Source of the DNA: a virus | Taxonomy: Duplodnaviria > Caudoviricetes | Reading direction: 5' to 3' (one strand) | Length of the DNA: 64,000 bases | IMG/VR virus record: IMGVR_UViG_3300030117_007612 | Coordinates: 128,001 to 192,000 of that record | Shown: piece after piece, positions 62,407-62,488 of the stretch | Layout: each line of letters begins with the position of its first letter | Numbering within the stretch: the first letter of the stretch is position 1 | The notes under the pieces: generated by a model | What the model was told of the DNA's origin: nothing | The model's input: the letters and a program-made list of their open reading frames with translations, nothing else | Databases searched by the model: none | Made by a program: the position numbers and the translations under genes

Positions 62407-62488
62407 GGGGGTGTATCTCCGCCGTCTTATAAGCGGTGCATTGTGGAGTAACTGGTGCATGCGGGTTCAAGTCCCGTCGCCCCTACCA
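62407..62488 (+). tRNA. Atypical tRNA-Ile(UAU)-like RNA lacking a D-arm, with long variable arm
   Basis: GGGGGTG/CGCCCCT acceptor + ACCA, U8A9, GCCGT-CTTATAA-GCGGT anticodon arm, GCGGG-TTCAAGT-CCCGT T arm. Confidence 0.75.

What the first reader, a model, noticed from the sequence alone, without database searches (positions are those of the whole stretch)
62407..62488. D-armless tRNA-Ile(UAU)-like gene with a long V arm that may supply the missing D-stem strand
Seen: a canonical 7-bp acceptor stem with ACCA, a canonical T arm (TTCAAGT loop), and a canonical anticodon loop CT-TAT-AA with U33 and A37A38. Only 5 nt (TCTCC) lie between U8A9 and the anticodon stem, so there is no D hairpin. The 23-nt variable region forms GCATT/GGTGC around a loop containing TGGAGTAA. 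Its GGAG (62445-62448) is complementary to CTCC (62417-62420). Established: bacteria normally read AUA with lysidine-modified tRNA-Ile(CAU), UAU anticodons are rare, and D-armless tRNAs are mainly known from animal mitochondria. Inference: a rearranged or pseudoknotted tRNA in which D-loop/D-stem elements have moved into the V arm. It could decode AUA independently of TilS, or act as a decoy or a nuclease-resistant tRNA against anticodon-nuclease defences.
Basis: partly seen in the sequence, partly recalled or inferred. Interest (0 to 1): 0.78.

Follow-up and report, generated by a model that had tools for sequence, protein, structure and literature searches.

The report
Phage isoleucine tRNA with swapped D-arm
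This marine jumbo-phage gene encodes a conserved tRNA for the isoleucine codon AUA in which the piece that normally precedes the anticodon arm (one D-stem strand plus the D-loop) comes after it; the same layout recurs in over a hundred phage contigs and some bacterial tRNA arrays, ARAGORN missed all 109 copies, and I found no description of it.

Summary
Window 62407-62488 (+) has a normal acceptor stem, anticodon arm (UAU), T arm and ACCA, but no D hairpin. ARAGORN misses it, and Rfam's tRNA model scores 27.3 bits against a cutoff of 29. It belongs to a large family: 109 distinct copies from viral contigs, plus 36 parsed from bacterial genomes. In that family the 3 nt after U8-A9-U pair with 3 nt after the anticodon arm. 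This helix is 98% paired, with compensatory changes at all three pairs. Next come A14, R15, G18G19, A21 and Y48 equivalents, and R15 and Y48 covary. Moving that block back in front of the anticodon arm, with nothing added or deleted, turns 108 of 109 copies into cloverleaves that ARAGORN accepts, as often as real tRNAs at higher stringency. Controls fail. I read it as a block-swapped tRNA: [1-9][22-47][10-21][48-76]. The anticodon-free search returned only UAU, GAU and CAU; a few Arg versions lay elsewhere in the loci. The phage uses AUA for 27% of its Ile codons, and AUA aligns as Ile. Processing, charging and the 3D fold are inferred, not shown. First readers of this scan noted sister copies, and follow-ups described other D-armless phage tRNAs.

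The parts
62407..62413 (+). Acceptor stem, 5' strand (positions 1-7), pairs with 62478-62484
   Evidence: In the family this helix is 98% paired, and all 7 pairs show compensatory changes.
62414..62416 (+). U8, A9, and a U that I read as the position-22 equivalent (it lies opposite U at 62449)
   Evidence: All three are invariant in alignment A1.
62417..62420 (+). CTCC, the upstream strand of the D' helix (equivalents of 23-26). It runs straight into the anticodon stem and pairs with GGAG at 62445-62448.
   Evidence: Sisters have CCCA/TGGG. Family columns 11-13 with 43-45 are 98% paired, and 3 of 3 pairs show double changes. The fourth pair, 62420-62445, is specific to the window's clade; most of the family has C.A there.
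62421..62437 (+). Anticodon arm: 5-bp stem and loop CUUAUAA, with anticodon UAU at 62428-62430, U33, A37 and A38
62438..62444 (+). Spacer GCATTGT, the variable-region equivalent, which bulges between the anticodon stem and the D' helix. Most of the family has NGAAA here.
   Evidence: The GCA may pair with TGC at 62456-62458 in this clade only. No compensatory change supports that.
62445..62448 (+). GGAG, the downstream strand of the D' helix (equivalents of 10-12, plus a clade-specific pair)
62449..62459 (+). D-loop-like connector TAACTGGTGCA: U13', A14' (62450), R15' (62451), G18'G19' (62454-62455) and A21' (62459)
   Evidence: T-A-R..GG..CA is present in 19 of 19 members found without constraining it.
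62460..62460 (+). U, the Y48 equivalent and proposed Levitt partner of A at 62451
   Evidence: R15/Y48 counts are A-T 72, G-C 29 and other 8. Fisher p = 2.7e-19, and both states occur inside at least 5 sub-lineages.
62461..62477 (+). T arm: 5-bp stem and loop TTCAAGT
62478..62488 (+). Acceptor stem 3' strand (62478-62484), discriminator A73 (62485) and encoded CCA (62486-62488)
   Evidence: A73 is present in 105 of 109 family members.
62365..62394 (+). Weak promoter-like site GTGACG-18-CATAAT just upstream. A stronger TTGACA-16-TATACT site at 61151-61178 precedes the upstream 382-aa ORF.
   Evidence: consensus match only. Sister copies L002, L003 and L005 have TTGACA-17-TATACT or TATATT about 12 nt upstream of the tRNA.

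Best explanation
Window 62407-62488 is a functional phage tRNA that reads the isoleucine codon AUA, with a rewired core.

Shown:
- It has a canonical 7/5 acceptor/T minihelix with A73 and CCA, and a canonical anticodon arm with UAU.
- It has a short helix (D') between the nucleotides right after U8-A9-U and nucleotides after the anticodon arm.
- Directly after that helix come the nucleotides that define a D-loop: U-A14-R15-NN-G18G19-...-A21. A pyrimidine follows that covaries with R15 like the 15-48 Levitt pair.

Inferred:
- The order of two blocks is swapped relative to every textbook tRNA. Instead of [1-9][10-21][22-47][48-76] the order is [1-9][22-47][10-21][48-76].
- The three new junctions (9 to 22, 44-47 to 10, 21 to 48) join residues that are neighbours in the canonical core. 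The relevant textbook yeast tRNA-Phe contacts are 9.12.23, 10.25.45, 8.14.21 and 15.48. So the same L-shape, D/T elbow contact and anticodon-to-CCA distance can form with a different chain path.
- RNase P, the CCA end, EF-Tu and the ribosome would see a normal acceptor/T domain and anticodon arm. Host IleRS would charge it mainly through A35, U36, A37, A38 and A73.
- It supplies AUA decoding for a phage that uses AUA heavily, without needing lysidine (TilS).
- A tandem duplication of the 10-47 segment followed by loss of the outer copies is the simplest way such a swap could arise.
For: Structure
- Sister copies change both strands of the helix, CTCC/GGAG to CCCA/TGGG.
- An anticodon-free pattern search gave 105 distinct parsed genes. 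A structural parse of all fetched viral loci gave 109 distinct members.
- The three D' pairs are C-G, G-C, A-T or T-A in nearly all members. The 5' strand was never part of any search pattern.
- On alignment A1 the whole structure is 94% paired against 60% when shuffled (0 of 500 shuffles reach it) and at most 48% when slid. The D' helix is 98% paired, with double changes at 3 of 3 pairs.
- RNAalifold predicts the same helix unprompted.
- R15/Y48 covary: A-T 72, G-C 29, other 8, p = 2.7e-19, recurring in at least 5 sub-lineages.

Un-swap test
- Exchanging only the block order makes ARAGORN of 109, against 0 of 109 for the native order.
- At 110% stringency 95 of 109 pass, against 743 of 930 real tRNAs from the same loci. 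A shuffled block gives 4 of 109 and boundaries offset by 3 nt give 0 of 109.

Function
- Anticodons from the anticodon-free search are only TAT, GAT and CAT. The same holds for 36 copies parsed from 38 matching loci in bacterial genomes.
- A73 is present in 105 of 109 members. 33 of 90 lie within 20 nt of an ordinary tRNA gene.
- Sister copies have consensus sigma-70 promoters directly upstream.
- Contigs from four RNA libraries (three studies) match only 62407/9 to 62482/9, with unrelated flanks. Conservation therefore ends at the predicted tRNA ends.
- AUA makes up 27% of the phage's Ile codons (17.8 per 1000). Its other tRNAs also match heavily used A-ending codons: AGA, UUA and AAA.
- AUA positions align to I/V/L just as AUU and AUC do, and unlike AUG.
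- There is no other UAU tRNA in the genome and only one gene with this layout.
- The phage has no TilS or IleRS.
Against: - Nothing here shows a processed roughly 80-nt RNA, aminoacylation or ribosomal use. The RNA-library contigs carry flanks and could be DNA carry-over.
- Standard tools score it poorly. ARAGORN of 109. Rfam gives 27.3 bits for this copy and 28-33 bits for eight others, against 50-75 bits for ordinary tRNAs.
- Energy does not favour the D' helix in this copy: -25.6 kcal/mol against -28.2 for the fold with the V hairpin. Single-sequence MFE contains the helix in only 9 of 109 members. The same method finds ordinary D stems only 49% of the time.
- With the anticodon loop masked, the un-swapped sequences do not resemble canonical tRNA-Ile more than other isotypes. 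Ile identity therefore rests on the anticodon and A73.
- Part of the connector conservation (TAR, GGT, CAY, T loop) was imposed by the pattern. The independent support is the 19 members from the search.
- The steric feasibility of the swapped chain path comes from textbook tertiary contacts. It was not modelled.
- The phage's tRNA(CAU) at 60815-60891 could be a lysidine-type Ile2, which would make the UAU tRNA partly redundant.
Confidence: 0.7

Rival explanations
1. It is a truly D-armless, floppy tRNA of the mitochondrial tRNA-Ser(GCU) kind. The short helix merely lengthens the anticodon stem, the following 12 nt are a passive linker, and there is no tertiary core or elbow contact. It still works in translation.
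For: The secondary structure is the same as in my best explanation. In human mt-tRNA-Ser(GCU) a 4-nt D-replacement loop pairs with the V loop and stacks on the anticodon stem (PMC9427863). No 3D evidence was obtained here.
Against: The mitochondrial tRNA has lost its core nucleotides. This family keeps U8, A14, R15, G18G19, A21 and Y48 equivalents. R15 and Y48 covary. The block behaves as a real D-stem strand plus D-loop in the un-swap test, while shuffled or offset blocks fail. The T loop is canonical.
Confidence: 0.15
2. It is a tRNA-like RNA that is not used for decoding. Possible roles are a decoy or sponge for a host tRNA-cleaving defence or tRNA-modifying enzyme, or a regulatory or priming RNA.
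For: The architecture is unusual, and standard tRNA models score it low. Its body does not resemble canonical tRNA-Ile. Phages are known to carry tRNAs that counter tRNA-targeting defences (my own knowledge, not tested here).
Against: Within the Ile family only position 34 toggles (U, G, C), while A35, U36, R37 and A73 stay fixed. That is what selection for decoding Ile codons predicts. The phage uses AUA heavily and has no other UAU tRNA. Copies sit inside tRNA operons. The acceptor/T minihelix and CCA are intact.
Confidence: 0.12
3. One reading: a long variable-arm hairpin (GCATT/GGTGC) is the main structure, and the CTCC/GGAG contact forms only as a pseudoknot from its loop.
For: The hairpin is in the MFE fold of this copy at -28.2 kcal/mol. 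GCA/TGC is kept in the five members of the window's clade, with one A-to-G change that preserves a wobble pair.
Against: Across the family these columns are 43% paired against 41% when shuffled, and most members cannot form the hairpin at all. RNAalifold does not predict it. No compensatory change supports it.
Confidence: 0.2
4. It is a decayed tRNA pseudogene that has lost its D arm.
For: It scores below Rfam's gathering threshold, and ARAGORN does not call it.
Against: At least 109 distinct copies keep the same layout, with compensatory changes in every helix. Conservation stops exactly at the tRNA ends while the flanks differ. Sisters have dedicated promoters. I found no homologue of this family with an ordinary D arm.
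Confidence: 0.02

Closest known systems
Canonical bacterial and phage elongator tRNA (Rfam RF00005), in particular tRNA-Ile
   Same: It has a 7-bp acceptor stem, U8, A73 and CCA. It has a 5-bp anticodon stem with a 7-nt loop (U33, A37) and a 5-bp T stem with a GTTCRANYC loop. It also has a 3-4 bp D-type helix and the A14, R15, G18G19, A21 and Y48 nucleotides. Its length is about 77-82 nt.
   Different: The D helix is not a hairpin. Its strand next to the anticodon stem comes first, and its other strand plus the D-loop come after the anticodon arm. ARAGORN of 109 copies, and Rfam scores them 27-33 bits.
TilS-independent tRNA-Ile(UAU) of Mycoplasma mobile and a few other bacteria
   Same: It uses a UAU anticodon to read AUA without lysidine. 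AUA is read as Ile in this phage, and the phage has no TilS.
   Different: Those tRNAs are ordinary cloverleaves. Charging of this one by IleRS is untested.
D-armless mitochondrial tRNA-Ser(GCU/AGY) of animals (PMC9427863)
   Same: A short linker after positions 8-9 pairs with the variable region and stacks on the anticodon stem. There is no D hairpin.
   Different: The mitochondrial tRNA has lost the whole tertiary core and the canonical T loop, and it is short. The phage family keeps all core nucleotides, has a canonical T loop, and is as long as a normal tRNA.
allo-tRNAs, including allo-tRNA(UAU) (Mukai et al. 2017, PMC5389517)
   Same: They are non-canonical tRNAs found in metagenomes and phages. 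UAU is a predominant anticodon among them.
   Different: allo-tRNAs have 8/4 or 9/3 acceptor/T branches, a long-stem tetraloop D hairpin and a long V arm. This gene is 7/5, has no D hairpin and has no conserved V hairpin.
Circularly permuted tRNA genes of Cyanidioschyzon merolae (Soma et al. 2007, from my own knowledge)
   Same: The gene order of tRNA segments differs from the textbook order.
   Different: In those genes the 3' half precedes the 5' half, and processing through a circular intermediate restores a canonical mature tRNA. Here the ends are normal and two internal blocks are exchanged. No circularisation could restore the usual order, and no joints were seen in RNA-library contigs.

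Membership tests
Canonical tRNA (Rfam RF00005) | Score at or above the curated gathering threshold (29 bits) | tested here: not met
   This copy scores 27.3 bits. Eight other family members score 28.3-33.0 bits. Ordinary tRNAs in the same loci score 50-75 bits.
Canonical tRNA (Rfam RF00005) | Acceptor stem of 7 bp, a T arm of 5 bp with a T-psi-C-type loop, and an anticodon arm of 5 bp with a 7-nt loop carrying U33 and R37 | tested here: met
   The helices covary across the family.
Canonical tRNA (Rfam RF00005) | D stem-loop hairpin between position 9 and position 26 | tested here: not met
   Only 5 nt lie between A9 and the anticodon stem. The D-type helix closes around the anticodon arm instead.
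Canonical tRNA (Rfam RF00005) | Conserved core nucleotides U8, A14, R15, G18G19, A21 and Y48 | tested here: met
   All are present, but A14 to A21 lie after the anticodon arm. R15/Y48 covary.
tRNA-Ile reading AUA (UAU type) | Anticodon UAU with A37, A38 and discriminator A73 | tested here: met
   A73 is present in 105 of 109 members.
tRNA-Ile reading AUA (UAU type) | AUA means isoleucine in the genome that carries it | tested here: met
   AUA columns align to I 35%, V 23% and L 12%. AUU gives 32/20/15. AUG gives M 27%.
tRNA-Ile reading AUA (UAU type) | Aminoacylation by IleRS and decoding on the ribosome | not testable with these tools
   This needs charging assays or tRNA-seq of charged species.
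tRNA-Ile reading AUA (UAU type) | Body sequence related to canonical tRNA-Ile | tested here: inconclusive
   The nearest canonical neighbours of the un-swapped sequences, with the anticodon loop masked, have mixed isotypes.
D-armless mitochondrial tRNA-Ser(GCU) | A D-replacement linker pairs with the variable region and extends the anticodon stem | tested here: met
   compared with PMC9427863.
D-armless mitochondrial tRNA-Ser(GCU) | Loss of the tertiary core and of the canonical T loop and elbow | tested here: not met
   Core nucleotides and a canonical T loop are retained.
allo-tRNA (8/4 or 9/3) | 8/4 or 9/3 acceptor/T branch, a long-stem tetraloop D hairpin and a long V arm | tested here: not met
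   The branch is 7/5 and there is no D hairpin. The V hairpin is not conserved. The definition comes from PMC5389517.

The most novel reading that the evidence does not exclude
This is a natural topological isomer of tRNA: the same L-shaped core built with a different chain path, because blocks 10-21 and 22-47 are exchanged. It is fully active in translation and spread through phages and mobile tRNA arrays for Ile codons and some Arg codons. If so, the cloverleaf order is not obligatory for bacterial translation. The rewired D region might also let phage tRNAs escape host enzymes or defence nucleases that read the normal D-arm connectivity.
Probability: 0.5. Interest if true: 0.92.

Novelty: new variant of a known kind. 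Interest (0 to 1): 0.8.

Why it matters
The cloverleaf order of tRNA arms is treated as universal outside animal mitochondria. The tRNA finders tested here miss this family or score it near their cutoff. ARAGORN found none of 109 copies, and Infernal scores sit at the threshold. Phage tRNA repertoires, and the codon-usage and host-range inferences built on them, may therefore be under-counted, and AUA readers in particular.

If the swapped-block fold is confirmed, several things follow:
- RNase P, EF-Tu, IleRS and the bacterial ribosome would be shown to tolerate a different chain topology in the core.
- It would be a natural example of RNA fold conservation through block permutation.
- It would offer an orthogonal-looking scaffold for tRNA engineering.
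- It would raise a testable question: does the rewiring protect phage tRNAs from host tRNA-targeting defences?

Tried and rejected
- **BLAST against GenBank phages** (near and distant modes) found no match for the region.
- **ARAGORN** in bacterial mode at 100, 80 and 60% thresholds, and in mitochondrial and mammalian-mitochondrial modes, gave no call. Only mitochondrial mode at 80% gave one.
- **V-arm hairpin as a family feature**: rejected, 43% paired against 41% when shuffled.
- **Single-sequence thermodynamics**: cannot decide between the folds.
- **Nearest-neighbour isotype of the un-swapped sequences**: uninformative.
- **RNA-library contigs** (X17-X20): they cover exactly the tRNA, but they are contigs with flanks. 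They do not show transcription, processing, ends or strand.
- **Post-transcriptional re-ordering of the blocks**: I considered this, by analogy with permuted algal tRNA genes. No joints were seen, and circularisation cannot exchange internal blocks, so I rejected it as unlikely. It is not formally excluded.
- **Sole AUA reader in cultured Bacteroidota?** No. All five genomes checked have TilS.
- **Phage-encoded TilS or IleRS**: none found.
- **Literature**: six full-text searches with different wordings found no description of a D-armless or rewired tRNA in phages or bacteria. The library lacks most subscription journals, so absence is not proof.
- **allo-tRNA membership**: rejected after reading the definition.
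- **Pfam on the upstream 382-aa ORF** (61245-62393): no family found.

Full report
**1. The observation**

- The 7-bp acceptor stem joins 62407-13 to 62478-84 and includes two G.U pairs.
- U8 and A9 follow, then five nucleotides, TCTCC.
- The anticodon stem has 5 bp and the loop is CTTATAA, with anticodon TAT at 62428-30.
- A 23-nt region follows, then a canonical T arm with loop TTCAAGT, then A73 and an encoded CCA.
- GGAG (62445-48) is complementary to CTCC (62417-20).

ARAGORN and Rfam at gathering thresholds report only the three ordinary tRNAs of the window, Leu-UAA, Lys-UUU and CAU. At a permissive threshold Rfam's tRNA model aligns end to end at 27.3 bits against a cutoff of 29 (E = 8e-4). 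That alignment deletes the D arm and inserts 20 nt in the variable region. ARAGORN finds the gene only in mitochondrial mode at 80% threshold.

**2. Setting**

The window is bases 128001-192000 of a 203,368-bp IMG/VR virus record, rated complete and 42% GC. Runs from several independent marine metagenome studies hold the stretch.

The phage carries a tmRNA and tRNAs Arg-UCU, Asn-GUU, Gly-GCC, Leu-UAA, Lys-UUU and CAU. The candidate lies 13 nt after a 382-aa ORF with no Pfam match. The nearby tRNA operon encloses an MgtC/ACT gene.

**3. Relatives**

The exact 3' half occurs in five viral contigs. Four are sister copies with different flanks. They have TCCCA where the window has TCTCC, and TGGG where it has GGAG. 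That is two compensatory double changes in the proposed pairing. Three of them have TTGACA-17-TATACT or TATATT promoters about 12 nt upstream.

A looser pattern (CTTATAA, a gap, then the T loop) found many more UAU genes of three kinds:
- ordinary D arm with a long extra arm;
- the window's layout;
- a version with a longer, 5-6 bp helix.

That pattern forced the anticodon. I therefore searched again with a pattern covering only the connector and the T arm. A structural parse of all fetched viral loci gave 109 distinct members. Their anticodons are TAT 76, GAT 22 and CAT 7, plus 4 Arg versions found in flanks. A covariance-model search of other loci added Arg-CCU and further Arg-UCU examples.

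**4. Structure**

The three nucleotides after U8-A9-U pair with the three nucleotides preceding an invariant U-A-R. Pair types in the 109 members are almost only C-G, G-C, A-T and T-A. The upstream strand was never part of a search pattern.

On a 34-sequence alignment (A1):
- The whole structure is 94.2% paired against 60% in shuffles (0 of 500 reach it) and at most 48% when the partners are slid.
- The D' helix is 98% paired, with changes on both sides at all three pairs.
- RNAalifold predicts the same helix on its own and no variable-arm hairpin.
Only a GCA/TGC contact is kept within the window's own clade, without compensatory support.

For the window's sequence the D' fold scores -25.6 kcal/mol, the same fold without D' scores -22.5, and the hairpin fold scores -26 to -28.2. 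Energy therefore cannot decide. MFE folding recovers the D stem of ordinary tRNAs only 49% of the time.

**5. The block-swap reading**

After the downstream strand come U, A, R, one or two nucleotides, GG, two to four nucleotides, C and A, and then a pyrimidine just before the T stem. These match positions 13, 14, 15, 18-19, 21 and 48 of a canonical tRNA.
- In the 19 members found without constraining this region, all have T-A-R..GG..CA.
- R15 and Y48 covary as a Levitt pair would: A-T 72, G-C 29, other 8, Fisher p = 2.7e-19. Both states occur inside at least five sub-lineages.
- The upstream strand runs directly into the anticodon stem, as positions 22-26 do in a normal tRNA.

So the order is [1-9][22-47][10-21][48-76].

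I tested this by exchanging only the order of the two blocks, with nothing added or removed.
- ARAGORN then of 109, with the expected anticodons, against 0 of 109 in the native order.
- At 110% stringency 95 of 109 pass, as often as 743 of 930 real tRNAs from the same loci.
- A shuffled block gives 4 of 109, and block boundaries offset by 3 nt give 0 of 109.

From textbook yeast tRNA-Phe tertiary contacts (9.12.23, 10.25.45, 8.14.21, 15.48), the three new junctions join residues that are already neighbours in the core. This step is inference and was not modelled.

**6. Function**

- **Anticodons.** The family found with the anticodon-free pattern carries only NAU anticodons, and A73 is nearly invariant.
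- **Position.** Members sit in tRNA clusters. 33 of 90 lie within 20 nt of an ordinary tRNA, and an ordinary tRNA with the same UAU anticodon is rarely nearby (3 of 75).
- **Codon use.** AUA makes up 27% of the phage's Ile codons (17.8 per 1000). Its other tRNAs match heavily used A-ending codons: AGA 40% of Arg, UUA 25% of Leu, AAA 62% of Lys.
- **Meaning of AUA.** In alignments to homologous proteins of other phage loci, AUA positions align to I/V/L at 35/23/12%. AUU gives 32/20/15 and AUC gives 34/19/17. AUG positions align to M at 27%.
- **Copy number.** The phage has one gene of this layout.
- **Enzymes.** The phage has no TilS and no IleRS.
- **tRNA(CAU).** It is an elongator type. I could not tell Met from Ile2.
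- **RNA libraries.** Contigs from four RNA libraries (three studies) match only 62407/9 to 62482/9, with 1-2 differences and unrelated flanks. This fixes the conserved unit at the predicted tRNA ends but does not prove transcription.

**7. Distribution**

The same pattern matches 38 loci among about 185,000 species genomes, and 36 of them parse as this layout. All 36 carry NAU anticodons, and most lie inside dense tRNA arrays. The loci include cultured Chryseolinea, Chryseosolibacter and Ohtaekwangia strains, which share one acceptor stem. Those bacteria have TilS, so the gene is a supplement there.

Infernal scores for typical members are 28-33 bits, at the edge of detection.

**8. What is known**

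- allo-tRNAs keep a D hairpin and have 8/4 or 9/3 branches (PMC5389517).
- The D-armless human mitochondrial tRNA-Ser(GCU) also pairs a D-replacement linker with the V loop, but it has lost the whole tertiary core (PMC9427863).
- Six literature searches found nothing on such tRNAs in phages or bacteria.

This scan has met related elements before. First-reader notes exist on sister copies (e1-5390432, e1-5390446). Follow-ups described D-armless phage tRNAs for Arg (e1-406721) and an 8/4 UAU type (e1-5336217). I treated these as leads. The pairing, the Arg versions and the longer-helix class were seen again here independently. I do not know whether those follow-ups include them.

**9. Verdict**

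- Shown: the helix, the conserved D-loop-type nucleotides after the anticodon arm, the NAU restriction, and the fit to the phage's AUA usage.
- Inferred: the canonical 3D shape with a swapped chain path, processing, charging by IleRS, and use on the ribosome.
- Unknown: why this layout was selected. Escape from host tRNA-targeting enzymes is one untested possibility.

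Noticed in passing
L009, L010, L011, L012, L059 and many other loci: There is a large class of phage UAU tRNAs with a normal D arm and an extra hairpin whose loop reads CAGATTA, CAGATAA or TAGATCA, a GAU-containing, anticodon-loop-like arm. 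Earlier notes of this scan describe it (for example e1-4045950 and e1-1035274). Together with the swapped class, it suggests that Ile tRNAs of phages undergo internal duplications.
   Followed up: no
L016:504-586, L037, L038, L083:8615-8696, L022: These UAU tRNA-like genes have a longer (5-6 bp) version of the helix that encloses the anticodon arm: CCCGGC/GCCGGG, CCAAC/GTTGG and CCTTCC/GGGAGG. They have an 8/4-like acceptor/T branch. This is probably the type described in e1-5336217.
   Followed up: partly
L139:7912-7987, L081:2864-2942, L155:8849-8924, L057:6272-6349, L053:6900-6979, L015:5453-5532: Arg versions of the swapped layout carry anticodons ACG, UCG, UCU and CCU. Their connector, TAAKTGGAT...GAAAAT, is somewhat different. 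Together with AUA, the layout covers the classic rare codons AGA and AGG.
   Followed up: partly
L235, L242, L247, L255, L263, L267 (cultured Chryseolinea, Chryseosolibacter, Ohtaekwangia): Swapped tRNA-Ile(UAU) genes with one shared acceptor stem (CGAGGTG) lie in chromosomal tRNA arrays of related Bacteroidota isolates. This could reflect vertical inheritance or a shared mobile element. These are cultivable systems in which the RNA could be tested. All of them have TilS.
   Followed up: partly
window 60135-60815: An MgtC-family protein with a C-terminal ACT domain (Pfam E = 7e-36) is encoded inside the phage tRNA operon, between tRNA-Lys and tRNA(CAU). The tRNA(CAU) starts at the gene's stop codon.
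   Followed up: partly
window 58404-59333: This 309-aa ORF has a weak nucleotidyltransferase (Pol-beta type) match, E = 1e-3, just upstream of the tRNA region.
   Followed up: no
genome 26533-26865 (outside the window): A phage-encoded tmRNA with tag ANNNLHFEQRLAA (ARAGORN).
   Followed up: no
window 62397-62411 and 62491-62530: The 5' leader can pair with the first five bases of the acceptor stem (CCCCC-GAAT-GGGGG). Two hairpins without T runs follow the CCA end. Sister copies do not conserve either feature. They may affect precursor processing.
   Followed up: no
L235:2163-2252, L267:3779-3857, L262:6565-6635: ARAGORN reports tRNA-??? genes with 4-nt or 2-nt anticodons inside the same bacterial tRNA arrays. 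These may be further non-canonical tRNAs.
   Followed up: no
L154:981-1183 and L159:1455-1816: A group I intron (65 bits) and a tmRNA (58 bits) lie next to swapped tRNA genes in other phage contigs.
   Followed up: no
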